A stretch of DNA of 64,000 nucleotides from Nitrospirota bacterium (lineage in GTDB: Bacteria > Nitrospirota > UBA9217): assembly GCA_029858565.1 (NCBI GenBank), contig JAOUEV010000007.1:32001-96000 (forward strand), written 5' to 3'. Positions 6,400 to 41,981 of the stretch are shown here, one piece after another (the first letter of the stretch is position 1; each line of letters begins with the position of its first letter). A program made the position numbers and the translations under genes. The notes under the pieces are model-generated. The model did no database searches. It was not told the DNA's origin and saw only the letters and a list, made by a program, of their open reading frames with translations.

Positions 6400-6442
6400 C
6401 CTGTCTTCGGGAGCTTCTTTGCTGATACGCAATGGCGTCGTA

Positions 6443-10121: not shown

Positions 10122-10132
10122 CCGCCGATCCC

Positions 10133-28125: not shown

Positions 28126-30807
28126 ATGCGGAGCAAGCTGTCTGACGCGGTTCTTGATCCGATCTACCGAAAGTACACACTCCTGGCGCTCCTGGGATGG
28201 ACCCTTCTTGTTGCGCTCCTCCTGGCCTACGTTATCATCGAGCATCGTCAGCAGGATATCTCTATTCTGGCCAATCAGGCCCGGGCGTCGTTCTCCAAGG
28301 ACCTGCTCTACCGGCGCTGGAATGCGAGGCTCGGCGGCGTGTACGCGCCGGTTTCCGACGAGCTTCGTCCCAATCCCTATCTCGCACACGTTCCCGAACG
28401 GGACATCACAACGTCTTCGGGCAGGAAGCTTACGCTTGTCAATCCCTCCTACATGACCAGGCAGGTCCATGAACTGCAGCTGCGGGACGACGGGACCGTC
28501 AGCCATATCACGAGCCTTCGCCCGCTTCGTCCGGAGAACGCGCCTGATCCCTGGGAAAGAAAAGCTCTGGAACAATTCAACCGCGGCGACAGGGAGGTTG
28601 TCTCAGTGGAGCAGGTGGGAGGGGAAGAACATCTTCGACTGATGCGGCCGCTCCGGACCGAGGCGCCCTGTCTTGCCTGCCATGCCCTCCAGGGCTACCG
28701 CGTGGGTGATGTCCTAGGCGGGATCAGCGTTACTCTGCCCGTCAAGGCCGGCTGGCTCCAGCATGACAAAGACCTCATCGAGCCGCTGATCGTCTTCGGC
28801 ACCATGTGGCTGGCAGGCATCGCGGTCATCGCGGCCGGCTCGGCGAAATTGTCCCTCAGGTCCCGGGCGCTCCGTGACAGCGAGGTGCGGTATCGAACGT
28901 TGTTCGATACGATCCAGGACGGCATCTTCCAGGTCGATGAACAGCGGAACATCCGGTTCATCAATCCCGCGGGAGCCCGCATGCTCGGATACGGGCGTCC
29001 GGATGAAGCTGTCGGCGCTCCCCTGTCGCGTCACTGGCAGGATTATCAGGACTACGTATCCTATGAGAATGACCTGGCAAAGCAGAAGCGGCTTGCGTTG
29101 CTCCTGGTCAATGCCGTCCGACTGGACGGAAGCAGGGCCATCTTCGAGCTAACCGCTCGGGCCCTGGAATCGGCCGACGGTGCCGTGAGCGGCCAGGAGG
29201 GTATCTTCCGCGATATCACGGCCCGGATCGAAGCGGGGATCAAGGCGCAGGAGTTATCGAAGACCATGCGGGAGATCCTTGATCACGCGCCATTCGGGAT
29301 CTACCTGGTCGGTGAAGGTGGCGTCATAGAGTATGTCAATCCTGCAATGCTCGCCATCGCCGGTGACAATTATGAGCAGTTCACCGAGATGAACGTTCTG
29401 GAGTTCCCCAACTACCGGGCCATCGGTCTCTCCGACCGCATAGAGAAGGCATTTTCCGGAGAATACTTCCGGATGGAGCACATCGAGTATGTCTCCTATT
29501 TCGGGAACCGGCGCTCGATACGCAACTTTATCGGGATTCCGATCACTGAACGGGGCGGGCGGAAGGTGTTGATGATCGTCGAAGACATTACGCACCGGGT
29601 GACCGCCGAAGAACGGCATGAGAAGCTGCGCGAGCAGCTTGTCCAGGCCCAGAAGATAGAATCCCTTGGACGGCTTGCGGGGGGAGTTGCTCACGACTTC
29701 AACAACATCCTGTCCGCGATCATAGGCTACAGCGACCTTGCCCTTCGCAAGCTGCCTGAGGACGCCCCGGTCGCAAAGGATATCAGGATCATCCGCTCAT
29801 CAGGCGAACGTGCGGCCCAGGTGGCCCATCAGCTCCTGGCATTCAGCCGGAAACAGGTGCTGGAGATGCGCATTGTGGATGTTAACGCGCTGGTTGCCAA
29901 TCTGGCAAAGATGCTGTCCCGACTGATCGGAGAGGATATCACATTCCGGATCCTGAATGGGACCGCGGCCCTGAACGTTCACGCCGATCCCACTCAGGTG
30001 GAGCAGGTTATTATCAATCTGATGGTCAACGCCCGTGATGCCATGCCCAAGGGGGGAGAGTTGATCCTGGAGACCGGGTTAACAGAACTGACGGAAGCCG
30101 ACGCACAGGAGCACCGGGAGATCGTTCCCGGCCGCTACGTACGAATAGCAGTCACGGATACAGGCGTGGGCATGCCGAAAGCGGTGCAGGATCGGATCTT
30201 CGAACCCTTCTTCACGACCAAGGAGATCGGCAAAGGGACCGGATTGGGTTTGGCAACGGTTTACGGCATCGTGAAGCAGCATAAGGGATATATATATGTT
30301 GCCAGCGAACCGCATAAGGGATCGACATTCACGGTCTATCTGCCGACAGAGATGACTGCCGGTGTTTCCGGAGTACGCGAGGAACGGTCCGTAGAACTGC
30401 CCTGCGGCTCCGGCGCAGTGCTGGTGGTAGAGGACGATGAATCGGTACGCAGCCTGGTCGGAGAGATGATCGGGACGCTCGGCTATACGCCGATCATCGC
30501 ACGGGACAGTCTGGAGGCGCTTGAGATCGTGGAGAAGGACCTGCGCCCGATCGAACTGCTGCTGACCGATGTGGTGATGCCGATCATGAACGGGAAGGAC
30601 CTGTCCGACCTTATCCGGTCAAAGCGGCCGGACATCCGAACGGTCTTCATGTCAGGATACACCGAGGAAGTGATCAGCAGGCATGGAATGCTCGATCCCG
30701 GAATCCTGTTCATCCAGAAGCCGGTCACCCCGGCCAAGCTCGCGGCCAAGCTTTCCGAGGCTCTGCAGCCGGTGCCGAGGGACCAGCCTTCCCATGGATC
30801 TTCCTGA
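28126..30807 (+). CDS. Hybrid histidine kinase with DUF3365 (Tll0287-like heme c) sensor, two PAS and REC
   Basis: YRRWNA..GGVY, NPSYMTRQ, SLRPLRPENAPDPWE and CLACH; AGGVAHDFNNIL, FTTKEIGKGTGLGL; REC TDVVMP. Confidence 0.92.
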   Translation: MRSKLSDAVLDPIYRKYTLLALLGWTLLVALLLAYVIIEHRQQDISILANQARASFSKDLLYRRWNARLGGVYAPVSDELRPNPYLAHVPERDITTSSGRKLTLVNPSYMTRQVHELQLRDDGTVSHITSLRPLRPENAPDPWERKALEQFNRGDREVVSVEQVGGEEHLRLMRPLRTEAPCLACHALQGYRVGDVLGGISVTLPVKAGWLQHDKDLIEPLIVFGTMWLAGIAVIAAGSAKLSLRSRALRDSEVRYRTLFDTIQDGIFQVDEQRNIRFINPAGARMLGYGRPDEAVGAPLSRHWQDYQDYVSYENDLAKQKRLALLLVNAVRLDGSRAIFELTARALESADGAVSGQEGIFRDITARIEAGIKAQELSKTMREILDHAPFGIYLVGEGGVIEYVNPAMLAIAGDNYEQFTEMNVLEFPNYRAIGLSDRIEKAFSGEYFRMEHIEYVSYFGNRRSIRNFIGIPITERGGRKVLMIVEDITHRVTAEERHEKLREQLVQAQKIESLGRLAGGVAHDFNNILSAIIGYSDLALRKLPEDAPVAKDIRIIRSSGERAAQVAHQLLAFSRKQVLEMRIVDVNALVANLAKMLSRLIGEDITFRILNGTAALNVHADPTQVEQVIINLMVNARDAMPKGGELILETGLTELTEADAQEHREIVPGRYVRIAVTDTGVGMPKAVQDRIFEPFFTTKEIGKGTGLGLATVYGIVKQHKGYIYVASEPHKGSTFTVYLPTEMTAGVSGVREERSVELPCGSGAVLVVEDDESVRSLVGEMIGTLGYTPIIARDSLEALEIVEKDLRPIELLLTDVVMPIMNGKDLSDLIRSKRPDIRTVFMSGYTEEVISRHGMLDPGILFIQKPVTPAKLAAKLSEALQPVPRDQPSHGSS

Positions 30808-30971
30808 TCCCGCCGGATTCTTCATCCTGTTCGTTGCAGGTCATTTGTGTCGCTCCCATGGTTTGTCAGGTCGGGGAGAATACTTTGCCAGCCATGTCAT
30901 GCTATGGCGGTGGGTGACAATAGAGATTAATAATTCGCGTATGAATTTTTTTTATGCTATTTTATCTTGAT

Positions 30972-31072
30972 TTTTGAATAGCATGTTGCTAGTATTCAAA
31001 ACTTGTCACATCCGCTTTTCAAGTTGCTAAATGTGAATTGAAGTAACATAAAATTCTATTTGGTAACATAAA
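30972..31072 (+). promoter_or_regulatory. Candidate operator region of the Fe-S/CODH operon
   Basis: Inverted repeat TTTTGAATA-N12-TATTCAAAA (30972-31001) and direct repeat GTAACATAAA at 31043 and 31063. Confidence 0.45.
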
Positions 31073-31236
31073 TAAATTGCTCTTTAAATACAGCTAGTTA
31101 TCATCGGTACGCGAATCTTCATTTTGTATTCATGTAGTCCGCACTTCATTCACCAGATCAAGGTTACCAGTTCCCCCTGATATTCCGAATGACGGGAAAG
31201 GTGTCTTTTCAGGGCAGAACGAGGGAGGTCTTAGCC

Positions 31237-31725
31237 GTGCTCGAACAAGCGGAAGTCAAATCCATCGACGCTATTTTGAACGATGCCCAGGGCCAGCGGG
31301 GCATGCTGATCGCTGTTCTGCAGAAGGTGCAGGAAAAGGTCGGCTATCTTCCCGAGGACGCCATGCAGATGATCTCGGACCGGCTCGAGCTGTCCTTTTC
31401 CCAGGTCTACGGTGTGGCGTCGTTCTATAAACATTTCCATTTCAAACCCCGAGGGAAGAAGATCGTCAAGGTCTGCATGGGCACGGCCTGCCACGTGCGC
31501 GGCGCCAAGGCCGTGCTGAACGAGCTCGAGTCCAAGCTCGGGGTCAAGGAAGGCGAGACCACCGCGGACCGGTCCGTGACGCTCGAGACCGTGGGCTGCG
31601 TGGGCTGCTGCGCCCTGGCCCCGGTGCTCACGGTGAACGACCAGGACCTCTATGGCGAGCTGACGCCCAAAATGGTGGACGATATCATCGGAACGGTGAG
31701 GAGCGAACATGGAACTCACGTTTAA
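31237..31725 (+). CDS. NuoE/HydC-like [2Fe-2S] subunit
   Basis: VCMGTACHVRG...VGCVGCCALAP; GTG start after GGAGGT. Confidence 0.9.
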   Translation: MLEQAEVKSIDAILNDAQGQRGMLIAVLQKVQEKVGYLPEDAMQMISDRLELSFSQVYGVASFYKHFHFKPRGKKIVKVCMGTACHVRGAKAVLNELESKLGVKEGETTADRSVTLETVGCVGCCALAPVLTVNDQDLYGELTPKMVDDIIGTVRSEHGTHV

Positions 31726-33607
31726 GCGGCTCGAGAATATTGCCGAACTCGCTGCCCTGCGCGAGCGGCTCAAAAAGGAACGCAAGGAGAGCGACGCCCA
31801 CCGCGTGCGCGTCTGCTGCGGAACCGCCTGCCAGGCAACGGGAGCGAACAAGCTGGTCAGCAAGTTCGAGGACGAGGCGGCGAAAAAGGGCGTGAAGCTC
31901 GAGATCGTGAAGACCGGGTGCCAGGGGTTCTGCCAGCGCGGCCCGGTCATGATCCAGGAGCCCCAGGAGATCTTCTACCAGAAGGTGAAGGTCGACGACA
32001 TCCCGAACCTGTTCTCCACTTCGCTGCTCCACGGCCAGCCCTACCGCAAACAGCTCTACCGTGAATTCCCGCTCTCGGAGCCCAATGCCGAGATGCAGGA
32101 CATTCCTTTTTACAAGAAACAGAAGCGCGTAGCGCTCCACCGGAACGGGTTCGTGGACCCCTGCAACATCTACGACGCCATCCGCGAGGACGGCTATGCC
32201 GCTCTGGCCAAGTGCCTGACCGACTACAAGCCTGATGAAGTGATCGATATCGTGAAAAAATCAGGTCTCCGCGGCCGCGGAGGCGCGGGCTTTCCCGCCG
32301 GTCTCAAATGGGAACATACCAAGAAGTCCGGCGCGAAGATCAAGGCCGTGGTCTGCAACGGCGACGAAGGCGACCCGGGCGCGTTCATGGACCGCGCGCT
32401 CATGGAAGGCGATCCCCATTCGGTGCTGGAAGGCATGATCATCAACGCCTATGCCATCGGCGCGCAGCACGGCTACATCTATGTGCGTCATGAGTACCCC
32501 CTGGCCGTGAAGAACCTGGGCATTGCCATCAAGCAGGCCGAGGCAATGGGGCTTCTGGGCAAGAATATTCTCGGCAGCGGTCTCGACTTTTCCATGGAGA
32601 TCAAGGAAGGCGCCGGCGCATTCGTCTGCGGTGAATCGACTGCGCTTGTCGCATCCATCGAGGGCGAGCGCGGCATGCCGCGGCCCCGTCCGCCCAGGCT
32701 TTCGGAAGCTGCCGGCGGCCTCTGGAACATGCCCACGAACCTGAACAACGTCGAGACCTTTGCGAACGTCCCGACGATCATCGTGAAGGGCCTCGATTAC
32801 TTTACCAAGATCGGCACGGAAAAATCCACGGGCACCAAGGTCTTCGCCCTGACCGGAAAGATCAAGAACACGGGCCTCATCGAGGTCCCCATGGGCATCA
32901 CGCTCCGGGAGATCATCTTCGATATCGGCGGCGGCATGCTGAACCCGGACAAGCAGTTCAAAGCGGTCCAGACCGGCGGCCCGTCAGGCGGCTGCATTCC
33001 TGCCCAGTTCCTCGACATGAAGGTGGACTTTGACACCCTTGCCGGCGTCGGCTCCATGATGGGTTCCGGCGGCATGGTGGTCCTGGACGAGGACGACTGC
33101 ATGGTGGACGTGGCCAAGTTCTTCCTGTCCTTCACCAAGAGCGAGTCCTGCGGCAAATGCCCGCCCTGCCGCATCGGCACCTGGCAGATGTACGAGATGC
33201 TGGAAAAGATCACGACCGGCAAGGGCGAGAAGGGCGATATCGAGAAGCTCGAGAAGATGGGCAAGATGATCGTCGCGGGCTCGCTCTGCGGCCTCGGGAA
33301 CAGCGCGCCGAATCCCGTGCTCTCGACCATCCGCTATTTCCGCGAGGAGTACGAGGAGCACGTGAACGACAAGTACTGCCGCGCCAAGCGGTGCCAGGGC
33401 TTGGGGACCTTCCGCATCCTGCCGGAGCATTGCATCCTCTGCGGCCTCTGCAAGCAGGCCTGCGCCTTCGACGCGGTCTCGGAACTCAGGGACAAGTACT
33501 TCATTGACCAGGACTACTGCACCTCGTGCAAGGCCTGCTACAGCGTCTGCCCCACGGAGGCGATCGTGATCGAGAAGGGAGGGGCCCATGTCGCAGCTCG
33601 AAAGTAA
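31709..33607 (+). CDS. NuoF/HydB-like FMN/NADH-binding subunit, long bifurcating-type architecture
   Basis: N-terminal thioredoxin-like 2Fe-2S (CCGTAC, GCQGFC); GRGGAGF, DEGDPGAFMDR, GGPSGG, ESCGKCPPCR..LC, H...C....C and two C-terminal [4Fe-4S] motifs. Confidence 0.92.
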   Translation: MELTFKRLENIAELAALRERLKKERKESDAHRVRVCCGTACQATGANKLVSKFEDEAAKKGVKLEIVKTGCQGFCQRGPVMIQEPQEIFYQKVKVDDIPNLFSTSLLHGQPYRKQLYREFPLSEPNAEMQDIPFYKKQKRVALHRNGFVDPCNIYDAIREDGYAALAKCLTDYKPDEVIDIVKKSGLRGRGGAGFPAGLKWEHTKKSGAKIKAVVCNGDEGDPGAFMDRALMEGDPHSVLEGMIINAYAIGAQHGYIYVRHEYPLAVKNLGIAIKQAEAMGLLGKNILGSGLDFSMEIKEGAGAFVCGESTALVASIEGERGMPRPRPPRLSEAAGGLWNMPTNLNNVETFANVPTIIVKGLDYFTKIGTEKSTGTKVFALTGKIKNTGLIEVPMGITLREIIFDIGGGMLNPDKQFKAVQTGGPSGGCIPAQFLDMKVDFDTLAGVGSMMGSGGMVVLDEDDCMVDVAKFFLSFTKSESCGKCPPCRIGTWQMYEMLEKITTGKGEKGDIEKLEKMGKMIVAGSLCGLGNSAPNPVLSTIRYFREEYEEHVNDKYCRAKRCQGLGTFRILPEHCILCGLCKQACAFDAVSELRDKYFIDQDYCTSCKACYSVCPTEAIVIEKGGAHVAARK

Positions 33608-34199
33608 GTGCCCCCTGACGGCAACGAAGCTGAAACTGGAGTTCTTCTACAACGATGACTCCAAGGACGGCATGTGCTCCAAGTGCCATCCCTGCAAGCT
33701 CGGCATCTATGACGCCGTCAAGATCCTTGACGCGATCCAGGCGGGGAAGGGCCTCGATATCTATCCCGCCTTGCTCATGCGCATTGCCGTGGACGTGAAG
33801 GACGGCGGCATGTGCAAGAAGGGCAAGGACCGCGCGGACCTTCTCGCGGCCTTTTTAAAGGATTTCTCGGACGACCTGCAGCGCCACATCAAAGGCGTCT
33901 GCACCCATCAGGTCTGCACGCGGTTGATCAGCTATGAGATCGATCCCGCGAAATGCACCATGTGCGACAAGTGCCGGGTCGTGTGCAAGGATTTCGCGAT
34001 CGAAGGCCAGAAAGCGGTCTCGGGCAAGCTTGGATTCACGCCCTACCGGATCCGGCAGAAGCGCTGCACCCACTGCGGGGAGTGCATCAAGGTTTGCCCC
34101 GAGGGCGCGGTGATCATTACCGAGGCTGCATTGGCAGGTGAGGAAAAGCCTGCCGCGTTGGTGAAGCACACCGTGGGCACCTGCCCGCTGCATTATTAG
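33588..34199 (+). CDS. Fe-S subunit resembling only the C-terminal part of NuoF/HydB
   Basis: CSKCHPC...MCKKG, RHIKGVCTHQVC, CTMCDKCRVVC and CTHCGECIKVCP; no FMN/NADH motifs. Confidence 0.85.
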   Translation: MSQLESKCPLTATKLKLEFFYNDDSKDGMCSKCHPCKLGIYDAVKILDAIQAGKGLDIYPALLMRIAVDVKDGGMCKKGKDRADLLAAFLKDFSDDLQRHIKGVCTHQVCTRLISYEIDPAKCTMCDKCRVVCKDFAIEGQKAVSGKLGFTPYRIRQKRCTHCGECIKVCPEGAVIITEAALAGEEKPAALVKHTVGTCPLHY

Positions 34200-34232
34200 T
34201 AGTACAGCAAGACCAAAAAGCGAGAACATTAT

Positions 34233-34310
34233 TCCCGCACGAAGACACGAAGTAAGGAAAAGCACAAGACAATGCAGATTTTCTTCGTGGATCCGTGGCT
34301 TCGTGCGAGA
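34233..34310. repeat. Short inverted-repeat element (REP/MITE-like) inside the operon
   Basis: TCCCGCACGAAGACACGA ... CCGTGGCTTCGTGCGAGA imperfect terminal IR built from CACGAAG/CTTCGTG units. Confidence 0.6.
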
Positions 34311-34372
34311 CAGGCAGTTTGTTGTTTATGGTTTTTAGTTAATGAATTGAACCTGAATTGCTGGAGGATGCT

Positions 34373-36535
34373 ATGACGACCAAGATGGTGAACATGGAGA
34401 TCGACGGGAAGGCCGTGCAGGTCCCCGAAGGCATGACCCTGGTGGACGCGGCGCAGACCGTGGGGATCCACATCCCGAACCTTTGCCATATCAAGGAACT
34501 TCGCGGTGTCGGCGCCTGCCGTATGTGCATGGTCGAGGTCGAGGGCCTGAAGACCCCGGTGACCGGTTGCACGACCCGCACCAAGGAAGGCATGAAGGTG
34601 CAGACCAAGACCCCGAAGGTCGAGGAGATCCGGAAGTTCGTGACCGATCTGGTCCTTTCCTTCCATCCTCTGGACTGCATGACCTGCCCCAAGGCGGGAG
34701 GCTGCGACCTTCAGCGGTATGCCGCTGACCTCAAGATCCAGGAGTCGTCCTTCGGCCGGAAAAGCTTCAACTATCCGCTCAACGACCGGAGCCCCTTCAT
34801 CACCATCGACAACAACTACTGCATCCTTTGCGGACGCTGCGTCCGGGTCTGCAAGGAACAGGGCACGAACGTTCTGGACTTCATGGGCCGCGGCATCACG
34901 ACCAAGGTCTCGACCGCCCTGGACAAGCCGCTGCACGAGTCAGGCTGCACCTTCTGCGGCTCCTGCGTCGACGCCTGCCCGGTGAACACGATCATGGAGC
35001 GCGACCGGTGGCAGCACGGCCGTGAGTGGGACATGGAAAAGGCGGACTCGGTCTGCACGGCCTGCGGCTCCGGCTGCGCTACCATCGTCTCGAAGAAGAA
35101 CGGCAAGATCGTGAAGGTCAATGCCAAGGAAGATACGGGCTATCTTTGCGCCATCGGACGCTTTGGTTTTGATGCGCTCACCGCTGCGAACCGCGTGACC
35201 TCGCCGATGATCCGGAAGGGCGGCAAGCTCAGCCCCGCGACCTGGGAAGAGGCGCTCAAGGTTGCTGCCGACGGCCTCAAGAAGGCAGGCGCAAACGCCG
35301 GATTCATCGCGTCCGGATCGCTCACGACGGAAGAAGCTTATGCGGTCCAGTCCCTGGCCCGCGATGTGGTGGGAAGCGCCAATGTGGATTCCACGGTCTC
35401 GGCCTATGCCGCAGGCCTGATCTCGGCGATCAGGACCATGTACGGCGACAACGGCACGGCGATGCTGTCCCAGGCCGATCTCCATTCCGCTGATTGCGTC
35501 GTCATGATCGGCGCTGATCCGTCGCAGAAGAAGCAGAAGCTCCAGGAAGCCGACGTGATGATCCGTCGCCGTGCACAGGCAGGCGCCAAGGTGATCGTGG
35601 TGAGCACCGAGAAAACGGACCTTGCAAATCATCAGAACGCGATCCTGCTGCAGGTGAAAGCGGGAGCCGACGCGGCGCTGCTGGCTGGTCTCATGAGCGC
35701 GGCTCTTGCCGAAGGCGCCCAGGCAACAGCAAAAGGGCTTGATGGTCTGAAAAAATCGCTGGTATCGGCCGACGAGGCAGCATCGACCTCCGGCGTCGCA
35801 GTTGAGCAGATCGCTGCAGCGGCCAAGGCATTTGCCGCTGCCAAGAACCCGGTTGTCGTGATCGGCACCGGCGTGAGCATGAACGAGGATGCCTCGCTTC
35901 AGGCGTTGAACCTGGCGGCGATGAAGAACGCCGGTGTCATGGCGCTCCTGCTTGAAGCGAACGGCCTCGGCGTGGTATCTGCAGGATGTTTGTCTGACCT
36001 CGGCGCCGGATTCACCAAGATCAAGAAGGCTGGCAAGGGCTACAGCGAGATGAAGTCCGGCATGAAGGCTCTCTATCTCGCCGGAAATATGCCTGAGGTG
36101 AATTTTAAGTCGGACTTCATGGTCGTCCAGACCAGCCATATAACCGCTCTGGCGGAAAAAGCCGATGTGGTGCTTCCGATGACCGCGCTGTACGAGCGCG
36201 CGGGAAGCATCGTTGATATGTATGGAAAGCAGAAATCCTTTGCAGCCGCGCAGGACGCGGCAGGGGTTGCCAAGGACGGAGCGGACATCGCTGCCGAGCT
36301 TTCGCTTGTGATCAGCAAGACCAAGGGCTTCAAAGTGAAGGATGTTGCCGCCGCTATCAAGAAGTTCAAGGCAGGCAAGCTTGCTGAAGCGTCATTCAAG
36401 CCGGTGAGTGCGAAGGCAGGGAAGTCGGCCGCGCTCTCCGCATCGGAACTGCTCGCGGGAATGAACAAGGGCATGCTCGCCAATTCCGCGGTGGCCAAGG
36501 TGGCTGCGCCGCAGGGAGCGCCGGTTTCGAAGTAA
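34373..36535 (+). CDS. NuoG/HydA/FdhA-like Fe-S subunit with a molybdopterin-oxidoreductase fold lacking the catalytic ligand
   Basis: 2Fe-2S (LCH..GACRMC..GC), HPLDCMTCPKAGGC, two [4Fe-4S] motifs and CTACGSGC..LC; NVDSTVSAY where FDH has NxDxCARxC/U; no H-cluster motifs. Confidence 0.85.
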   Translation: MTTKMVNMEIDGKAVQVPEGMTLVDAAQTVGIHIPNLCHIKELRGVGACRMCMVEVEGLKTPVTGCTTRTKEGMKVQTKTPKVEEIRKFVTDLVLSFHPLDCMTCPKAGGCDLQRYAADLKIQESSFGRKSFNYPLNDRSPFITIDNNYCILCGRCVRVCKEQGTNVLDFMGRGITTKVSTALDKPLHESGCTFCGSCVDACPVNTIMERDRWQHGREWDMEKADSVCTACGSGCATIVSKKNGKIVKVNAKEDTGYLCAIGRFGFDALTAANRVTSPMIRKGGKLSPATWEEALKVAADGLKKAGANAGFIASGSLTTEEAYAVQSLARDVVGSANVDSTVSAYAAGLISAIRTMYGDNGTAMLSQADLHSADCVVMIGADPSQKKQKLQEADVMIRRRAQAGAKVIVVSTEKTDLANHQNAILLQVKAGADAALLAGLMSAALAEGAQATAKGLDGLKKSLVSADEAASTSGVAVEQIAAAAKAFAAAKNPVVVIGTGVSMNEDASLQALNLAAMKNAGVMALLLEANGLGVVSAGCLSDLGAGFTKIKKAGKGYSEMKSGMKALYLAGNMPEVNFKSDFMVVQTSHITALAEKADVVLPMTALYERAGSIVDMYGKQKSFAAAQDAAGVAKDGADIAAELSLVISKTKGFKVKDVAAAIKKFKAGKLAEASFKPVSAKAGKSAALSASELLAGMNKGMLANSAVAKVAAPQGAPVSK

Positions 36536-36656
36536 CACGACAGCGTGTCCTGTACACTTTTTGCTCCGGCAGGTCATTGCCGGTTGAGATACATCTTCAG
36601 GTGGTAACACGCGGGGGCGTCAGTCTCCCGGTAAGGAAAGGAGCTTTGGTACGATC

Positions 36657-38639
36657 ATGAGAGAAGACCAGAAATCCGTTGACCCGGCAGCGCAGGTAAT
36701 GCTGAAAGTGGCCGGCTTGAAAAAAATCGAAACATCCTTCGAACGCGCGGAGAGGCTCAAACCCTGTCCGATCGGACATCAGGGCGCATGCTGTAAAATG
36801 TGCCACATGGGCCCCTGCCGTCTTGTGGGCAAGGAAGAAGAGGCCGAGGGCGTGTGCGGAGCAACCCTGCCGGTCGTGACAGCGCGGAACTTCGCGCGAA
36901 TGGTTGCCGCGGGCACTGCTGCCCATTCTGACCATGCCCGCGACCTGGCGAACACGCTGCTCGCCGTGGGCCGCGGCGAGGCCAAGGACTTCCAGGTCAA
37001 GGACGTGCGCAAGCTGAACCGCGTTGCCGGCTACCTCGGCATCAATGTCGAGGGAAAAGCGGTCAACAAGGTGGCCGAGGAGGTGGCGCTCAAATTCCTG
37101 GAGCAGTTCGGCCAGCAGCGGGGCACGCTTGCCTATCTCGGACGGGCGCCCAAGAAACGGCAGGAGATCTGGAAAAAGCTGGGGCTCGCACCGCGGGCAA
37201 TTGACCGCGAGTGCGTTGAGATGCTGCACCGCACGACCATGGGTGTGGACCAGGAGATGGAGAATATCATGCTCGGCGCCATGCGCGCGGCCCTGGCAGA
37301 CGGCTGGGGCGGTTCCATGATGGGCACGGACATTTCCGACATCCTCTTCGGCACCCCGAAGCCGGTCCGGTCCAATGCCAGCCTTGACGTGTTCATGGAA
37401 GATCATGTGAACCTGGTGGTGCACGGCCATGAACCTTCCTTTGCCGAGATGCTCGTCATCGCATCAGAGGACCCGGAGATCGAGGCATACGCCAAGTCCA
37501 AGGGCGCCAAGGGCGTGAAGCTCGTGGGCATGTGCTGCACTGCGAACGAGATCCTGATTCGCCACGGCATTCCGACGGCGGGAGGGTTCCTGCAGCAGGA
37601 ACTCGGTATCCTCACGGGTATGGTCGAGGCCATGGTCGTAGACGTCCAGTGCATCATGCCGGCTATCGGCGAACTGTCAAAGAAGTATCATACCAAGATT
37701 GTTACGACCACGAACAAAGGCAAGATGAAGGATGCCATCCACATCGAGTATGACGAGCATCATGCGCTCGATCTTGCCAAGAAGGTCGTACGTCTTGCCA
37801 TCGACAATTTCCCGAACCGGAAAAAGGATATGGTGTCGCCCCCTCATATCAAGCCTGCTGACATGATCGCCGGTTTCTCGCATGAATATATCGAATACAT
37901 GCAGGGCGGTCTCTATCGCGGGTCCTTCCGGCCGCTGAACGACGCGATCATCGCCGGCCGTGTGCGCGGCATTGTGGGGCTGGCAGGCTGCAACAACCCC
38001 AGGATCAGCCAGGACAGTATGCACAACTTCCTGACGCGGGAACTGATCAAGAACGATGTGCTGGTGGTCCAGACGGGCTGCTCTGCCATGGCTTCCGCCA
38101 AGGCCGGGTACATGACACCGGAGAACGCCATGGAGAATGCCGGCAAGGGTCTACGCGAGGTCTGTGAAGCCATCGGTATCCCGCCGGTGCTCCACATGGG
38201 CTCCTGCGTGGACAATTCGCGCATTCTGACCGTGGCTTCCGCCATTGCCGAGGAAGGCGGTCTCGGAGACGATATCGGCGGTCTTCCGGCTGTGGGTATA
38301 GCTCCGGAGTGGATGAGCGAAAAGGCAATCGCCATCGGCACCTACTTCGTGGCATCCGGTGTTCCGATCATCTTCGGCGCGGGTTCACCGGTCAGCGCCA
38401 GCAAATCGATGAAGGACCTGATGGAAAATAAGTGGTGGGACCTGGTGAACGCGGGCTTCTACTTTGAAGAGGACCCGGGAAAGATCCTGGAACTGGCACT
38501 TAAAATGATCGATGCGGCTCGTGAGAAGCTCAAGATCAGGAAATACGAGCCCGGTCGATTCGGCACTGAGCGCGTACTGATGGATATGGCGGCGCGGCGC
38601 GCGGCCTCATTTGCCACGCCTCACGGTGAAGTCGTGTAG
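36657..38639 (+). CDS. cooS: Anaerobic Ni-Fe carbon monoxide dehydrogenase catalytic subunit
   Basis: CPIG..GACCKMCHMGPC..GVC, AHSDH, HGHEP, GMCCT, DVQC, AGCNN, TGCS, GSCVDN and MSEKA; D/B/C-cluster ligands appear intact. Confidence 0.95.
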   Translation: MREDQKSVDPAAQVMLKVAGLKKIETSFERAERLKPCPIGHQGACCKMCHMGPCRLVGKEEEAEGVCGATLPVVTARNFARMVAAGTAAHSDHARDLANTLLAVGRGEAKDFQVKDVRKLNRVAGYLGINVEGKAVNKVAEEVALKFLEQFGQQRGTLAYLGRAPKKRQEIWKKLGLAPRAIDRECVEMLHRTTMGVDQEMENIMLGAMRAALADGWGGSMMGTDISDILFGTPKPVRSNASLDVFMEDHVNLVVHGHEPSFAEMLVIASEDPEIEAYAKSKGAKGVKLVGMCCTANEILIRHGIPTAGGFLQQELGILTGMVEAMVVDVQCIMPAIGELSKKYHTKIVTTTNKGKMKDAIHIEYDEHHALDLAKKVVRLAIDNFPNRKKDMVSPPHIKPADMIAGFSHEYIEYMQGGLYRGSFRPLNDAIIAGRVRGIVGLAGCNNPRISQDSMHNFLTRELIKNDVLVVQTGCSAMASAKAGYMTPENAMENAGKGLREVCEAIGIPPVLHMGSCVDNSRILTVASAIAEEGGLGDDIGGLPAVGIAPEWMSEKAIAIGTYFVASGVPIIFGAGSPVSASKSMKDLMENKWWDLVNAGFYFEEDPGKILELALKMIDAAREKLKIRKYEPGRFGTERVLMDMAARRAASFATPHGEVV

Positions 38640-38671
38640 TCTGATAAAATATCTCAGGTAGTTTAGGTGCT

Positions 38672-38705
38672 AAGGCCGGAGGGAGATTCCCTCCGGCCTT
38701 TTTTT
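38672..38705 (+). terminator. Intrinsic terminator
   Basis: AAGGCCGGAGGGA/TCCCTCCGGCCTT stem plus a T-run. Confidence 0.85.
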
Positions 38706-38890
38706 CACTGCTCCCTGGAATCTGTGGGGGCTGTCGGAGCGGTAACAGCTTATTGCCTGTACGGGAAGTGTTTTCTCGGAGTTCTCGCCCGCATTCGCCG
38801 GTTTTATTACCGTATATGTTGTGGTTTTCACTCTTCACGTCCACAAGATGCGGTATCTTGTTGATAAATTTCAAATAAATTATAATTATC

Positions 38891-38936
38891 TTGACAACCG
38901 AATTGTTTTAAGTATCATAGTAACTATACTTACTAT
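38891..38936 (+). promoter_or_regulatory. Promoter and palindromic operator candidate for merR-pilMNOPQ
   Basis: TTGACA-N16-TATCAT; ATAGTAA-N6-TTACTAT inverted repeat at 38917-38936. Confidence 0.55.
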
Positions 38937-38970
38937 AACCAGATACACTAGTACGATCGGAGAGGCTGCG

Positions 38971-39168
38971 ATGGTTAAGCGCAAAAACCCGAAAAAGTAT
39001 AAGACTAAGGAGATCTGCGATAGATTTGATATCTCCCGTGCAACGCTTTTTCGCTGGGAGAGCGAGGGATTGCTTACTGACGTCGAGCGCGACTGGCGCG
39101 GCTGGCGGGTGTACGGTGACATGAATCTGCGCGAGATCGAGAAGATCATCAGGAATAAGACCGCGTAA
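38971..39168 (+). CDS. Stand-alone MerR-type HTH protein (65 aa)
   Basis: YKTKEICDRFDISRATLFRWESEGLL..ERDWRGWRVY; GGAGAGG RBS. Confidence 0.85.
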   Translation: MVKRKNPKKYKTKEICDRFDISRATLFRWESEGLLTDVERDWRGWRVYGDMNLREIEKIIRNKTA

Positions 39169-39201
39169 CGACCGGAGAACGATTCCCCACAGGGAGACCG
39201 C

Positions 39202-40254
39202 ATGCTGTTCGGAAAAAAAATAGAACCAATCGCCCTTGATATCGGATCAACGCTGATCAAGCTTGTGCAGCTCAAGGGGACCGGCAAGAGCTTCAGTCTG
39301 AGCAAGTTCGGGATGATCCCGCTTCCCCCCGAGGTGATCGTGGAAGGTGCGGTGATGGACGCGAACCGCGTTTCCGAAGCGATCAAGGAGCTTATCGCCG
39401 CCCAGAAGATCAAGACCAAGGAGGTCGTACTCTCCGTATCGGGAAGTTCGGTGATCATCAAACGTGTTTCCATCGCCGACATGACCGATGAGGAGCTCAG
39501 CGAGTCCATTAAATGGGAAGCGGAGCAGTATATTCCCTTTTCCATCGATGATGTGAACGTCGATTTCCAGAAACTTGGTCCCGGAGCCGCTGAAGGGCAG
39601 GCGGACATCCTCCTGGTCGCCGTCAAGAAGGACAAAATCAATGATTATGTGAACCTGGTGAAGGACGCTGGGCTTGAGCCGGTTGTCGTGGACGTGGACG
39701 CGTTCGCGCTTGCCAATATGTACGAGATGAACTATGAGGTGGAAGGCGGCATCACGGCGCTGTTGAACATCGGGGCCTCGGTGATGAACATCAATGTGCT
39801 GAAGGACGGCGGATCCATCTTTACCCGAGACATCACTGTCGGCGGCAACCGGTATATCGAAGCGCTGCAGCGGGACGCCGGATTGACCTATGAGGACGCC
39901 GAAAAGGTGAAACGCGGCGAGCCGGTCGACGGGGGAGATAAGGACCAGCTGACCGGGATCGTTTCGACGGTCACCGAGGATATCGTCGGCGAGATCCAGC
40001 GCTCATTCGATTTCTTCCGGTCCACGACCGGGAGCGAGGCGGTAAGCAGAGTCCTGATATGCGGCGGGTGCGCCAAGATACCCGAGTTCAGCAAGACCTT
40101 GTCCAGCCGGCTGGAAATCCCGGTGGACGTCATCAATCCGTTCAAGAACATCAAAGTCGATCCGAAGCACTTTGACGCCGGTTTTATCAGTGAGTCGGCT
40201 CCTCTGGCGGCTATAGCAGTAGGTCTTGCGATGAGGAGGCCAGGCGATCGATGA
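39202..40254 (+). CDS. pilM: Type IV pilus assembly protein PilM
   Basis: ALDIGSTLIK, WEAEQYIPF, NIGAS and AVGLAMR. Confidence 0.95.
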   Translation: MLFGKKIEPIALDIGSTLIKLVQLKGTGKSFSLSKFGMIPLPPEVIVEGAVMDANRVSEAIKELIAAQKIKTKEVVLSVSGSSVIIKRVSIADMTDEELSESIKWEAEQYIPFSIDDVNVDFQKLGPGAAEGQADILLVAVKKDKINDYVNLVKDAGLEPVVVDVDAFALANMYEMNYEVEGGITALLNIGASVMNINVLKDGGSIFTRDITVGGNRYIEALQRDAGLTYEDAEKVKRGEPVDGGDKDQLTGIVSTVTEDIVGEIQRSFDFFRSTTGSEAVSRVLICGGCAKIPEFSKTLSSRLEIPVDVINPFKNIKVDPKHFDAGFISESAPLAAIAVGLAMRRPGDR

Positions 40255-40799
40255 TTAAGATCAACTTATTGCCGACAAAGCGCAAGCCCTCGCGCAAGAT
40301 AACCGATCTGCAGAAACAGGCGGTGCTCGGCGGCCTGATCCTGGGCGGCGTCATCACCGGCATGGTTCTCTACACGGCAAGCTTGAACCAGAAGATCGCA
40401 CAGCGCCAGCAGAAACGCGATGCCACCAAGACGAAAATCGCGCAGCAGGAGACCATGCTGAAAGAGGTCAAGAACGTCGAAGACGAGGAAAAGAAGGTCA
40501 CGGAAAAGATCAACGTCATCGAACAGCTCAAGAAGAACCAGCAGGGGCCGGTACGGATGCTCGATGAGATCAGCAGGGCCGTTCCGACCGGCATTGGAAT
40601 AACCTCAATCACGGAAGCCGCCGGCAGGATCAATATCAACGGCGATGCCTTTACGAATGAGGACATTGTGAAGTTCGTGGAGAACCTGAAGGCTTCACCA
40701 TTTTTTCAGGAAATCTATCTTCTGGAGTCAATGCTTGCGAAAGAGAAGGAAACGGAGATCTACCGTTTCAAGCTCCAGATGAAGTACAAGGGGGTCTGA
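40251..40799 (+). CDS. pilN: PilN
   Basis: MIKINLLP motif, TM and coiled coil; gene order. Confidence 0.92.
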   Translation: MIKINLLPTKRKPSRKITDLQKQAVLGGLILGGVITGMVLYTASLNQKIAQRQQKRDATKTKIAQQETMLKEVKNVEDEEKKVTEKINVIEQLKKNQQGPVRMLDEISRAVPTGIGITSITEAAGRININGDAFTNEDIVKFVENLKASPFFQEIYLLESMLAKEKETEIYRFKLQMKYKGV

Positions 40800-41431
40800 T
40801 GAAGACGCCGGCGATCCTCGAAAAGATCCAGAAGATCCCGACCAAGACCCGTGCCATCGCATTTGGCGTGGTTACCGCATTGGTGACGATCCTGTTCATC
40901 TGGCAGGTCCACATTCCCAAGACGAGCGAGATCGGCAAGCTGGACACGGAGATCGCGGGCCTGGAAGCGACAATGCGCGACAATGACGCGAAGATCAAGA
41001 AGCTTGACATGTTGAAGGCCAAGGTCAAGGAGCTCCAGGAAAAGTTGAAGGTCCTGACCAAGCAGCTGCCACCTGAGTCGGAAGTGTCCGGCTTGCTGCG
41101 TGAGATCCAGAATCTGGTGAACAAGGCCGGCCTCACGCTCAAACTGTGGAAGCCCGATAAGAGAAAGCCCGGATGCAGCGGTATGTGTGAAGAGATACCA
41201 ATCTCGCTGAAGCTCCTCGGCGGGTATCATAACGTCGCAATGTTCTACGACAGCGTCAGCAAGCTGACCCGCATCGTGAACATTGCTAATGTCAAAATGG
41301 GCGGCGCCAAGGTGGGGAACAGCGGACTTATGGAGATCGAGATCGACTGTACCGCAATGACCTTCGCCGCGACGGAGAAAAAGATGGAAGAGAAGACAGC
41401 GGTGCCGGTAGCCGTTAAACAGGTTAAATAG
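40799..41431 (+). CDS. pilO: PilO
   Basis: TM, coiled coil, QLP.ESEV..LL and GGYHNVAMF..VSKLTRIVN. Confidence 0.92.
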   Translation: MKTPAILEKIQKIPTKTRAIAFGVVTALVTILFIWQVHIPKTSEIGKLDTEIAGLEATMRDNDAKIKKLDMLKAKVKELQEKLKVLTKQLPPESEVSGLLREIQNLVNKAGLTLKLWKPDKRKPGCSGMCEEIPISLKLLGGYHNVAMFYDSVSKLTRIVNIANVKMGGAKVGNSGLMEIEIDCTAMTFAATEKKMEEKTAVPVAVKQVK

Positions 41432-41432
41432 C

Positions 41433-41981
41433 ATGCGAAATAAAATCTCATTCTTGATTTCCATGGTGATTGCCGGGATGCTGCTTGGGGGCTGCTCAGA
41501 CTCAGCTAAACCTGCGCCACCGGCACCGGTCGCTCCCACGCCGATAGCGACGACGCCGACCGTCACGGCGCCGGTCTCGGCAGCGACCGTGACCAGTGCG
41601 CCGTCATCAACGGTCGCAGCTCCGGTCGCCTATGCCTACAATCCACAGGGTCGACGGGATCCCTTTACTCCCCTTATTCTCAAGGAGGAGAAAAAGGCGT
41701 TTATCGGCGCGAGAACGCCGCTGGAACGGTATGCTATCCATGAGTTCAAGCTGGCAGGGATCGTATGGGGCGGTCTCGGGTATCATGCCATGCTCGAGGG
41801 GCCCGATGGCAAGGGGTATTTCGTGAAGGAGAAAACGATCATCGGTCCGAACCGCGGTATTGTCAGGAGGATCACCCAGAGCAATATGATCGTTGAAGAG
41901 CGGTATCGCGATCCGTCCGGGGAAATGAAAAAGAAGGAAATCGTCATCGAGCTTCGCAAATCACAGGAGGGGACACCATGA
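41433..41981 (+). CDS. pilP: PilP lipoprotein
   Basis: Lipobox LGGC; YNPQGRRDPF and PLERY...KLAGIVW. Confidence 0.9.
   Translation: MRNKISFLISMVIAGMLLGGCSDSAKPAPPAPVAPTPIATTPTVTAPVSAATVTSAPSSTVAAPVAYAYNPQGRRDPFTPLILKEEKKAFIGARTPLERYAIHEFKLAGIVWGGLGYHAMLEGPDGKGYFVKEKTIIGPNRGIVRRITQSNMIVEERYRDPSGEMKKKEIVIELRKSQEGTP

What the first reader, a model, noticed from the sequence alone, without database searches (positions are those of the whole stretch)
31237..38639. Candidate electron-bifurcating CO dehydrogenase: catalytically empty HydABC-like module plus CooS
Seen: NuoE-like, long NuoF/HydB-like, an extra Fe-S subunit and NuoG/HydA-like genes run co-directionally into cooS, and the only clear T-tailed terminator follows cooS. 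The large subunit has all its Fe-S motifs but neither H-cluster motifs nor the Mo/W Cys/Sec ligand, so it needs an external catalytic partner. The flavin subunit has the N-terminal 2Fe-2S domain, AFM and GGPSG motifs and two C-terminal [4Fe-4S] clusters. Established: this architecture is typical of bifurcating HydB/BfuB subunits. Inference: CooS docks on the module to couple CO/CO2 interconversion to NAD(H) and ferredoxin. CODH-linked Bfu complexes have, as I recall, been predicted from genomes, but I know of no biochemical characterisation. No acsB, cooC or cooF lies in the window.
Basis: partly seen in the sequence, partly recalled or inferred. Interest (0 to 1): 0.8.

Follow-up and report, generated by a model that had tools for sequence, protein, structure and literature searches.

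The report
CO dehydrogenase wired to NADH/ferredoxin module
A five-gene operon in an uncultured Nitrospirota bacterium joins the cell's only nickel CO dehydrogenase, most likely the one serving its acetyl-CoA (Wood-Ljungdahl) pathway, to a flavin and iron-sulfur module of the kind that splits electrons between NADH and ferredoxin, a pairing predicted before but never tested.

Summary
Five co-directional genes (NuoE-like bfuC, long NuoF/HydB-like bfuB, a 203-aa Fe-S subunit X, a NuoG-like bfuA with no catalytic site, then cooS) end at one strong terminator.

- **Linkage:** cooS and bfuCBXA stay together across at least four gene orders in anaerobic Nitrospirota. cooS lies in 61 of 80 X-centred loci, and most of the other 19 are cut by contig ends. 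Outside the window's family, 97 of 98 genomes with this BfuA also have this CooS.
- **Pathway context:** in other families the order is acsE-acsD-acsC-acsB-cooS-bfuC-bfuB-X-bfuA. The window's genome has acsB, acsCDE, fhs and a Sec-FDH on another contig but only this one cooS. CooS is therefore probably the Wood-Ljungdahl CODH, not only a free-standing CO oxidiser.
- **Module:** BfuB meets every sequence criterion of the Bfu family, and its best solved match is the bifurcating NiFe-HydB. X is a paralogue of the HydB C-terminal half.

Direct binding and bifurcation remain inferred. 'Codh-Bfu' was predicted in 2022, for Firmicutes only and with another architecture. I rate this a new variant of a known, uncharacterised kind.

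The parts
30967..30995 (+). Promoter-like site upstream of bfuC: TTGATT, 17 nt, TAGTAT. It leaves a leader of about 235 nt.
   Evidence: TTG[AC][TA]T-N16-18-TAn[TA]AT was found at the aligned place in 23 of 26 upstream regions (window plus 25 family relatives). It is too weak for the consensus scan, so the case rests on conservation.
31237..31725 (+). bfuC: NuoE/HydC-like [2Fe-2S] subunit. The longest ORF starts at 31189.
   Evidence: PF01257 174 bits, residues 26-170. Orthologues are 157-183 aa and align from about residue 17. GGGAGG lies before the GTG at 31237.
31709..33607 (+). bfuB: FMN/NAD(H) subunit of the bifurcating HydB type. It holds an N-terminal 2Fe-2S domain, the B1 cluster, the B2 site and a C-terminal 2x[4Fe-4S].
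   Evidence: Pfam domains. Best solved match is 7t2r_B 'NiFe hydrogenase subunit B', E 1e-223, residues 32-619. Next are the HydB chains 8a6t_B, 7q4v_B and 7p5h_B. Residues C464, T502, H551, C557 and C562 align with the B2 ligands C438, C476, H525, C531 and C536.
33588..34199 (+). X: 203-aa Fe-S subunit, a free-standing paralogue of the C-terminal half of HydB/BfuB. It has a B1-like 4Fe-4S, a Cys3His site and 2x[4Fe-4S].
   Evidence: PF10589 plus Fer4. The profile of 17 orthologues hits HydB residues 467-628 of 8a6t_B at E 3.7e-37. Invariant residues are C8, C30, C33, C36, C76, H100, C105, C110 and two CxxCxxCxxxC motifs. There is a single copy in the genome.
34373..36535 (+). bfuA: NuoG-like five-cluster subunit with a vestigial pterin domain and no catalytic site.
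   Evidence: Pfam. Alignment with the Sec-FdhA paralogues shows Tyr at the Sec position and no domain IV. The invariant Cys/His residues of five clusters are kept. PDB matches: 6tg9_A E 3e-72; 7t2r_A 'NiFe hydrogenase subunit A' E 9e-70 over residues 4-623.
36536..36656 (+). bfuA-cooS spacer. No terminator-like or promoter-like site was found here in this genome.
   Evidence: One search lists no + strand site in this spacer. The fold is no better than shuffles (z -0.10). Of the 27 spacers examined (26 relatives and the window), 21 carry an exact TATAAT about 60-85 nt before the cooS start. The window is one of the six that do not.
36657..38639 (+). cooS: Ni,Fe CO dehydrogenase catalytic subunit, the only one in the genome.
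   Evidence: TIGR01702 604.7 bits against 478. It is the only match over the cut-off in the genome. Best PDB matches are 6t7j_B, 6ytt_B, 9fzy_B and 6b6v_A, with the cluster-binding motifs aligned identically. The Cys and His residues of these motifs are invariant in 19 Nitrospirota sequences.
38672..38708 (+). Intrinsic terminator-like hairpin with T-run, closing the operon.
   Evidence: 13-bp stem, 9 G-C pairs, loop 3, then TTTTTTCA.

Best explanation
The operon bfuC-bfuB-X-bfuA-cooS encodes a nickel CO dehydrogenase together with its own redox partner. That partner is a HydBC/Bfu-type flavin and iron-sulfur module that exchanges electrons with NAD(H) at the FMN of BfuB and with ferredoxin at BfuB's C-terminal clusters.

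BfuA has five Fe-S clusters and a dead pterin domain. X is a four-site copy of the BfuB C-terminal half. Together they would form the wire between the BfuBC core and the surface cluster of CooS. This is analogous to HydA carrying the NiFe subunits in the solved NiFe-HydABCSL.

CooS is the genome's only Ni-CODH. It is also the orthologue of the cooS that follows acsB in other Nitrospirota. So this CODH is most probably the one that serves acetyl-CoA synthase in the Wood-Ljungdahl pathway.

The module would then let CO2/CO interconversion draw on, or deliver to, NADH and ferredoxin together, in the ratio 2 CO : 1 NADH : 2 reduced ferredoxin.

- **Shown:** gene content, motifs, synteny and phyletic nesting.
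- **Inferred:** physical association, the order of the wire, the direction of flow, and tight coupling (bifurcation or confurcation).
For: 1. **Synteny in the family.** The CooS orthologue (65% identity or more) is in 52 of 64 genomes. bfuA lies directly upstream on the same strand in 45 of those 52. X is in 49 of 64.
2. **Synteny across the phylum.** I examined 80 loci centred on X.
   - Of the 29 family-like loci, 26 read bfuCBXA-cooS and 3 are cut by contig ends.
   - Of the 51 other loci, 28 have cooS immediately upstream of bfuC and 7 have it 2.7-6.6 kb away.
   - At least four gene orders keep the two together.
3. **Phyletic nesting.** Outside the family, 97 of 98 sampled genomes with a BfuA homologue (E 1e-120 or better) also have the CooS homologue.
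4. **BfuA needs a partner.** It has no catalytic site.
5. **BfuB is the bifurcating type.** It has all four defining domains, the B2 His/Cys ligands, and 7t2r_B as its best solved match.
6. **Wood-Ljungdahl link.**
   - acsE-D-C-B sits directly upstream of cooS in most non-family loci.
   - The window's genome has cooC-like, acsE, acsD, acsC, acsB (NF040764 1031 bits against 800), a Sec-FDH and fhs on contig C7, without cooS.
   - It has a single cooS.
7. **Not complex I.** A separate nuoE-F-G run lies on contig C142.
8. **Co-transcription is plausible here.** No terminator-like or promoter-like site was found between bfuA and cooS in this genome.
Against: - **No physical or expression data.** No RNA run holds the stretch.
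- **CooS works without the module elsewhere.** 35 of 132 non-family genomes with this CooS lack this BfuA. Family f3 has cooC..acsEDCB-cooS-fhs with no bfu.
- **Three family genomes keep the cooS orthologue but have no bfuA orthologue** (G038, G052, G053). In G038 the genes before cooS are nfnAB-like, a TnpB-like gene and DUF3786.
- **cooS probably has its own promoter in relatives.** 21 of the 27 spacers examined (26 relatives and the window) carry an exact TATAAT before cooS, so it can probably be transcribed alone there.
- **The ACS link is not secure.**
  - In every family genome acsB lies away from cooS.
  - Two family genomes (G043, G017) also have a second cooS at 52% identity. In G043 it sits next to acsB.
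  - So in that family the bfu-linked CooS need not be the ACS partner.
- **No Bfu-specific feature on CooS.** Its conserved C-terminal tail is also present in lineages without bfu.
- **Thermodynamics.** CO/CO2 (-520 mV) lies below both ferredoxin and NAD, values as tabulated in PMC9304861. Bifurcation is therefore not needed for CO oxidation at standard concentrations.
Confidence: 0.55

Rival explanations
1. Stand-alone Codh-Bfu. The five proteins form a free CO:NAD+/ferredoxin oxidoreductase that scavenges or detoxifies external CO, independent of acetyl-CoA synthase.
For: - In the window's family cooS has left acsB and travels with bfuCBXA only.
- Two family genomes have a second cooS, which in G043 sits next to acsB.
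- Schut et al. proposed that a bifurcating CODH could use very low CO levels.
Against: - This genome has acsB/acsCDE but no other Ni-CODH.
- The closest CooS relatives outside the family (62-67% identity) sit directly after acsB.
- The two roles do not exclude each other.
Confidence: 0.2
2. Neighbours in one regulon, not one enzyme. BfuCB-X-A is a soluble NADH:ferredoxin (or NADH/NADPH/ferredoxin) oxidoreductase that balances the reductant pools for the Wood-Ljungdahl pathway. It might work with the NfnAB-like proteins, and it would reach CooS only through free ferredoxin.
For: - NfnA-like and NfnB-like genes lie beside the cluster in 22 of 80 loci.
- CooS functions without the module in other lineages.
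- An internal promoter-like box precedes cooS in relatives.
- No Bfu-specific feature was found on CooS.
Against: - BfuA has no substrate site of its own.
- The nfnAB-like genes are adjacent in only 4 of 29 family-like loci, whereas cooS is adjacent in all 26 that are not cut.
- This BfuA occurs almost only where this CooS occurs: 97 of 98.
Confidence: 0.2
3. Non-bifurcating CO:NAD+ oxidoreductase. The module simply passes CO-derived electrons to NAD+, as NAD-dependent formate dehydrogenases do. The extra clusters would serve as a wire or be unused.
For: - CO oxidation is exergonic with NAD+ alone (potentials).
- BfuA is about as similar to the alpha subunit of the non-bifurcating R. capsulatus FDH (6tg9_A, 247 bits) as to the NiFe-HydA (7t2r_A, 238.8 bits).
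Against: BfuB keeps all the features that, according to PMC9304861, non-bifurcating homologues lack: the N-terminal 2Fe-2S domain, the B2 His, and the C-terminal 2x[4Fe-4S]. The FDH beta and NuoF chains match only its core, at 335-392 bits against 748 bits for 7t2r_B.
Confidence: 0.05

Closest known systems
Predicted 'Codh-Bfu' of Firmicutes (Acetohalobium arabaticum, Clostridium cellulovorans). Schut et al. 2022, PMC9304861; passages and sections 4-6 read.
   Same: A BfuABC-type gene set sits in one cluster with a Ni-CODH gene and extra [4Fe-4S] subunits. The third substrate is proposed to be CO. It has not been characterised biochemically.
   Different: - The paper lists 4 sequences, in Firmicutes only, with the CODH genes between bfuB and bfuA.
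- It classes them as Type 2, whose BfuA lacks clusters A3 and A5.
- Here the phylum is Nitrospirota and cooS lies at one end of bfuCBXA.
- BfuA has five cluster motifs plus a dead pterin domain, and X is a BfuB C-terminal paralogue.
- The set is embedded in the acs (Wood-Ljungdahl) cluster in most lineages.
Bifurcating NiFe-hydrogenase HydABCSL of Acetomicrobium mobile (PDB 7t2r/7t30). The organism name is taken from PMC9304861.
   Same: - It gives the best solved match of BfuB (E 1e-223, residues 32-619).
- It gives the longest match of BfuA (residues 4-623 against 2-638 of a 692-aa chain).
- Its large subunit is likewise not catalytic, and separate catalytic subunits feed it.
   Different: The catalytic partner here would be a Ni,Fe-CODH, not a NiFe hydrogenase. 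The extra subunit X has no named counterpart in that enzyme in what I read.
CODH/ACS of acetogens (PDB 6ytt, 9fzy, 1mjg)
   Same: CooS matches their CODH subunits at E 1e-177 to 1e-139. Orthologues follow acsB directly. The genome holds acsB, acsC, acsD and acsE.
   Different: In this genome cooS lies apart from acsB, beside a Bfu module. The four searches I name under Tried and rejected turned up no paper describing such a module in an acs cluster.
NuoEFG, the N-module of respiratory complex I
   Same: The same three protein families. NuoG also carries a dead pterin domain.
   Different: BfuB has the extra N- and C-terminal cluster domains. No membrane subunit genes are adjacent. A separate nuoE-F-G run lies on contig C142.

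Membership tests
Bfu (HydABC-like) family as defined in PMC9304861 | BfuB carries the FMN-binding 51-kDa domain, SLBB, the NuoF 4Fe-4S domain and a ferredoxin-type 4Fe-4S domain (IPR011538, IPR019554, IPR019575, IPR017896). | tested here: met
   The Pfam counterparts PF01512, PF10531, PF10589 and PF00037/PF14697 all match. The definition was read.
Bfu (HydABC-like) family as defined in PMC9304861 | The B2 site His (H525 of NiFe-BfuB) and its Cys partners, which the paper says are absent from non-bifurcating homologues. | tested here: met
   H551, C557, C562 and C464 align with H525, C531, C536 and C438. T502 aligns with C476, and the paper reports Thr there in about two thirds of BfuB sequences.
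Bfu (HydABC-like) family as defined in PMC9304861 | A BfuC of the NuoE type (IPR002023), and a BfuA with at least a 2Fe-2S and a 4Fe-4S ferredoxin-type domain. | tested here: met
   PF01257 in bfuC. PF13510/PF00111 and Fer4 domains in bfuA.
Bfu (HydABC-like) family as defined in PMC9304861 | Tightly coupled reduction of NAD+ and ferredoxin by a third substrate. | not testable with these tools
   This needs an enzyme assay.
Codh-Bfu subclass (PMC9304861) | A Ni-CODH gene in the same cluster as bfuABC. | tested here: met
   cooS lies 121 nt after bfuA. The arrangement is conserved.
Codh-Bfu subclass (PMC9304861) | Type 2 BfuA lacking clusters A3 and A5, with the CODH genes between bfuB and bfuA. 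| tested here: not met
   BfuA has five complete cluster motifs. cooS lies outside the bfuCBXA block in all 61 loci that hold it.
Codh-Bfu subclass (PMC9304861) | BfuB falls in clade 49 of the paper's tree. | not tested
   The tree and sequence lists are in supplements, which were closed. The best solved match is a NiFe-BfuB, and the paper places NiFe-Bfu mainly in clade 49. That is a lead only.
Anaerobic Ni,Fe-CODH catalytic subunit (CooS/AcsA) | Family model over its cut-off, with the cluster-binding Cys/His motifs. | tested here: met
   TIGR01702 604.7 bits against 478. The motifs HGHEP, GMCCT, VQCIMP, GCNNP, TGC, GSCVD and EWMSEKA align identically with solved CODHs. They are invariant in 19 sequences. 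Which residue binds which cluster is recalled, not tested.
CODH/ACS (Wood-Ljungdahl) complex | An acsB partner, with the corrinoid protein and methyltransferase genes. | tested here: inconclusive
   These genes are not in the window. They are present on contig C7 without a cooS. Orthologous cooS genes follow acsB in other families. Physical pairing was not tested. Two relatives (G043, G017) have a second cooS, which in G043 lies next to acsB.
NAD-dependent formate dehydrogenase alpha subunit | A Sec/Cys Mo/W ligand and the dinucleotide-binding domain IV (PF01568). | tested here: not met
   There is Tyr at the Sec column, and the roughly 220 C-terminal residues of the FdhA paralogues are missing.
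[FeFe] hydrogenase HydA | The H-cluster domain. | tested here: not met
   Only the N-terminal Fe-S part matches NF040763 and the HydA chains (residues 11-220). No hydrogenase large-subunit domain appears in Pfam.

The most novel reading that the evidence does not exclude
In anaerobic Nitrospirota the CODH of the Wood-Ljungdahl CODH/ACS would be hard-wired to a flavin-based confurcating/bifurcating module. The wire would run through a dead-pterin NuoG-like scaffold and a duplicated HydB C-terminal subunit.

Half of the electrons for CO2 reduction to the carbonyl of acetyl-CoA would then come from NADH instead of reduced ferredoxin. In the oxidative direction, carbonyl oxidation would yield NADH plus reduced ferredoxin.

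That would change the accepted energy budget of the pathway in these organisms. It would also provide the first CODH-type member of the Bfu enzymes.
Probability: 0.35. Interest if true: 0.8.

Novelty: new variant of a known kind. Interest (0 to 1): 0.6.

Why it matters
CO2 reduction to CO is the most reducing step of the Wood-Ljungdahl pathway and is generally taken to need reduced ferredoxin (my recollection, not from a call).

A CODH that is fed by, or feeds, NADH and ferredoxin together would change how much ferredoxin these bacteria must regenerate. It would also bear on how they live on very little energy in groundwater and sediments.

It gives a concrete, widespread and conserved candidate for the still untested 'Codh-Bfu' class. 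It offers a defined subunit set, including an unassigned BfuB-derived subunit, for purification and cryo-EM. And it shows that acs clusters of a whole phylum carry four genes that pathway reconstructions may be overlooking.

Tried and rejected
1. **Complex prediction, CooS (alignment A2) with X (alignment A1).** No verdict: score 0.00 in both runs. It is no evidence either way. The CooS dimer with X and BfuA exceeds the tool's size limit.
2. **The look-up of sequencing runs.** No RNA holder is listed. One DNA holder may be the source sample, and the other 12 listed runs hold small shares.
3. **Rfam on 30700-39300 at E up to 1.** No match. The fold of the bfuA-cooS spacer is no better than shuffles.
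4. **CooS C-terminal tail (KYEPGxFGxERVLMDMAARR) as a Bfu docking peptide.** Rejected. It is equally conserved in family f3 and in G038 and G053, which lack bfu.
5. **Upstream hybrid histidine kinase (28126-30807) as a dedicated sensor.** It was not found upstream in the three family loci looked at with about 5 kb of upstream flank (L029-L031).
6. **Inverted repeat GTTAC-N5-GTAAC from relatives' leaders.** It occurs only twice in the window's genome, on contigs C25 and C88. Allowing one mismatch found none on the five contigs that carry the Bfu-type modules, the acs cluster or the nfnAB-like genes. The window's own leader is degenerate at this place.
7. **Complex I N-module reading.** Rejected; see the membership test.
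8. **The search of earlier findings.** Closed.
9. **Literature.**
   - Four searches found no paper describing a Bfu/NuoEFG-like module in a Nitrospirota acs cluster: CooS, NuoE, NuoF, bifurcating; Thermodesulfovibrionia, Wood-Ljungdahl, acsB, bifurcating; at least 3 of 4 terms; Nitrospirae, NuoEFG, acetyl-CoA synthase; HydBC, CODH, acetyl-CoA synthase, NADH.
   - 'Codh-Bfu' occurs in one paper only.
   - Inoue et al. 2019 (PMC6344411, passages) list NuoE/F/G-like COGs among the Wood-Ljungdahl-context neighbours of Ni-CODHs, without further comment in the passages I saw.
   - Bohm and Land 2026 (PMC13056359, outline and passages) do not contain the words NADH, Nuo or bifurc.
   - Supplements of all papers were closed and may hold relevant gene lists.

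Full report
**1. What is in the window**

Five genes run on the + strand.
- bfuC: ORF from 31189, probable GTG start at 31237, ends 31725. NuoE-like, PF01257.
- bfuB: 31709-33607, 632 aa.
- X: 33588-34199, 203 aa.
- bfuA: 34373-36535, 720 aa.
- cooS: 36657-38639, 660 aa. TIGR01702 604.7 bits against a cut-off of 478.

The first three genes overlap, by 17 and 20 nt. The gaps before bfuA and cooS are 173 and 121 nt. A 13-bp G+C-rich hairpin with a T-run at 38672-38700 is the only strong terminator-like site on this strand.

**2. The subunits**

*BfuB.* It has an N-terminal thioredoxin-like 2Fe-2S domain, the FMN/NADH domain, SLBB, the NuoF 4Fe-4S domain and two C-terminal ferredoxin-type clusters.
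- Its best solved relatives are the B subunits of bifurcating enzymes. They are 7t2r_B 'NiFe hydrogenase subunit B' (E 1e-223, residues 32-619), then 8a6t_B, 7q4v_B, 9n5u_B 'NfnB' and 7p5h_B.
- NuoF and the FDH beta chains match only the core.
- Schut et al. 2022 (PMC9304861; passages and sections 4-6 read) define the Bfu family by these domains. They also describe a pentacoordinate B2 site whose His is missing from non-bifurcating homologues.
- In the alignment, H551, C557, C562, C464 and T502 of BfuB stand at the places of H525, C531, C536, C438 and C476.

*BfuA.* It has the motifs of five Fe-S clusters.
- Aligned with the genome's two selenocysteine FdhA paralogues, it has Tyr where they have Sec. 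It ends about 220 residues early, without the dinucleotide-binding domain.
- It has no H-cluster domain.
- Its longest solved match is the non-catalytic A subunit of the same NiFe-HydABCSL: 7t2r_A, residues 4-623, E 9e-70.

*X.* It is a free-standing copy of the C-terminal half of HydB.
- The profile of 17 orthologues hits residues 467-628 of 8a6t_B at E 3.7e-37.
- It keeps a CxxCxxC...C motif, an invariant Cys3His set (C8, H100, C105, C110) and two CxxCxxCxxxC motifs.

*CooS.* It matches solved CODHs at E 1e-179 to 1e-136, with all cluster-binding motifs identical. Which residue binds which cluster is my recollection.

**3. Is the linkage more than chance?**

*Within the window's family (64 genomes).*
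- A CooS orthologue (65% identity or more) is found in 52.
- In 45 of these the bfuA orthologue lies directly upstream on the same strand.
- Three of the other seven are clear contig breaks: G022, G029 and G059.
- Three more (G038, G052, G053) have cooS without a bfuA orthologue.
- The seventh (G049) has its cooS and bfuA orthologues broken into pieces on one contig, about 0.5 kb apart at the nearest.
- X is in 49 of 64.

*Across the phylum.* A scan of one genome per species with the X alignment kept the best 80 loci (273 candidates encoded a relative).
- By my reading of the 80 titles, all but five name Nitrospirota or one of its member taxa. The exceptions are L034 'Betaproteobacteria', L068 'Deferribacteres', L108 'Woesearchaeota', and L101 and L102 'bacterium'.
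- Of the 29 family-like loci, 26 read bfuC-bfuB-X-bfuA-cooS. The other 3 are cut.
- Of the 51 others, 28 have cooS immediately upstream of bfuC and 7 have it 2.7-6.6 kb away.
- The remaining 16 have none in the locus. Eleven of these are cut at an end. Five have at least 5 kb of upstream sequence that holds nfnBA-like genes but no cooS.

*Gene orders seen.*
- acsEDCB-cooS-bfuCBXA
- bfuCBXA-cooS
- acsEDC-bfuCBXA-acsB-cooS
- cooS-(nfnBA-like, opposite strand)-bfuCBXA
- bfuCBXA ... acsEDCB-cooS

*Phyletic pattern.* In an even sample of the phylum outside the family, 98 genomes have a BfuA homologue and 132 have the CooS homologue. Of the 98, 97 also have the CooS.

**4.

The roughly 730-aa gene before cooS in other families is acsB (PF03598, PF19436). 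It is preceded by the two corrinoid-protein genes and the methyltransferase gene.

The window's own genome has the same set on contig C7. In order, it reads:
- a MinD/CbiA-type ATPase at the usual cooC place
- DUF2520
- acsE, acsD, acsC
- acsB (NF040764 1031 bits against 800)
- a fused NuoE/NuoF-like gene
- a Sec-FdhA
- fhs

There is no cooS on that contig. The genome (100% complete by marker genes) has one Ni-CODH only. acsB is present in 59 of 64 family genomes, and in every family genome it lies away from the bfu-linked cooS. So in this family cooS left acsB and stayed with bfuCBXA. I take that as the best single argument that the module's partner is CooS rather than another acs protein.

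Three results cut the other way.
- Family f3 has acsEDCB-cooS-fhs with no bfu at all, so the module is dispensable for CODH/ACS.
- Two family genomes (G043, G017) carry a second cooS at 52% identity, which in G043 lies next to acsB.
- One genus (g14) has acsB but no CooS orthologue in three genomes that are 83-98% complete (G055, G056, G057). A fourth (G054) lacks both.

**5. Transcription**

A promoter-like TTGATT-N17-TAnTAT lies upstream of bfuC in 23 of 26 aligned regions. In the window it is at 30967-30995.

In 21 of the 27 bfuA-cooS spacers examined (26 relatives and the window) there is an exact TATAAT about 60-85 nt before the cooS start. The window has none, and no terminator-like site either.

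So co-transcription is plausible here. In most relatives cooS probably also has its own promoter. No RNA data were available.

**6. How it most likely works (inference)**

By analogy with NiFe-HydABCSL, BfuB's FMN would exchange a hydride with NAD(H). BfuB's C-terminal clusters would exchange single electrons with ferredoxin. BfuA, with X, would carry electrons between this core and CooS.

The stoichiometry would be 2 CO + NAD+ + 2 oxidised ferredoxin = 2 CO2 + NADH + 2 reduced ferredoxin.

With the potentials tabulated in PMC9304861 (CO -520 mV, ferredoxin about -500 mV, NAD about -280 mV), bifurcation is unnecessary at standard CO. It makes sense only when CO is very dilute, which is the authors' argument. 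I would add the case where CO is an enzyme-bound intermediate kept low by acetyl-CoA synthase.

In the reductive direction NADH would then supply half of the electrons. Neither direction nor coupling can be decided from sequence.

**7. Comparison and novelty**

The kind ('Codh-Bfu') is in print as a prediction for four Firmicutes sequences with another architecture. The term occurs in that one paper only.

The present form differs in four respects.
- Phylum.
- BfuA type: five clusters and a dead pterin domain, nearer the NiFe-Bfu type.
- The X subunit.
- Integration in the acs cluster.

Inoue et al. 2019 noted NuoE/F/G-like COGs among the Wood-Ljungdahl-context neighbours of CODHs. The Wood-Ljungdahl pathway of non-nitrifying Nitrospirota is itself known (PMC11033732, passages).

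I found no description of this module in the searches named under Tried and rejected. Supplements were closed.

**8. Verdict**

This is a new variant of a known but uncharacterised kind. My confidence that CooS and BfuCB-X-A form one redox unit using NAD(H) and ferredoxin is 0.55.

Noticed in passing
window 30905-31110 and the aligned leaders of L034-L062: Upstream of the bfuC promoter-like site lies a strongly conserved AT-rich box; in the window it reads ATAGAGATTAATAATTCGCGTATGAA. In 12 of 26 leaders there is also an inverted repeat of the form GTTAC-N5-GTAAC about 50-70 nt after the -10 box. It looks like an operator. It is degenerate in the window.
   Followed up: partly
bfuA-cooS spacers of L034-L062: After the internal TATAAT box of relatives comes a short G+C hairpin whose stem bases differ between relatives. 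In five relatives (L040-L044) it is followed by a T-run, just before the cooS ribosome-binding site. It may be a leader or attenuator element. The window's version folds no better than shuffles.
   Followed up: partly
L013:7425-9770 and about half of the non-family loci (BfuB of about 780 aa): In several Nitrospirota families BfuB carries an extra C-terminal CBS-domain stretch (PF00571, two stretches). This hints at regulation by adenine nucleotides. The window's BfuB (632 aa) lacks it.
   Followed up: partly
G000 contig C7 (L033) 9643-11967 and 6442-9183; contig C41 (L010) 2314-7249; contig C138 (L011) 3156-6973: The genome holds three further HydB-type modules. One is a fused NuoE/NuoF-like 774-aa gene with a Sec (TGA) FdhA beside acsB. 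One is a NuoE/long-NuoF/Sec-FdhA set. One is a NuoE/long-NuoF set next to an FmdE-like gene.
   Followed up: partly
Genus g14 of the family (G055, G056, G057); L118: These genomes have the acs cluster (acsB at 74-75% identity) but no CooS orthologue, no X and no bfuA orthologue. The only Prismane-family hits are a hybrid-cluster-protein-sized gene and a divergent 509-aa member (about 116 bits). So they have acetyl-CoA synthase without a recognisable CODH.
   Followed up: partly
L026 (G038) 5886-8159: In one family genome the place of bfuCBXA before cooS is taken by a TnpB/Cas12f-like gene and a DUF3786 gene, behind nfnAB-like genes. This looks like loss of the module together with a mobile-element insertion.
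   Followed up: no
window 16874-22186: A 1770-aa multihaem cytochrome (MtrC/MtrF-like, cytochrome c7 and c3 motifs). It is followed by two hybrid histidine kinases (one with a Tll0287-like domain), a GGDEF protein and a GAF protein.
   Followed up: no
window 38971-44374: A 65-aa MerR-type HTH gene and pilM-pilN-pilO-(gene not scanned)-pilQ follow cooS. This junction is conserved in 23 of the 29 family-like loci, and also in G053, which lacks the bfu genes.
   Followed up: partly
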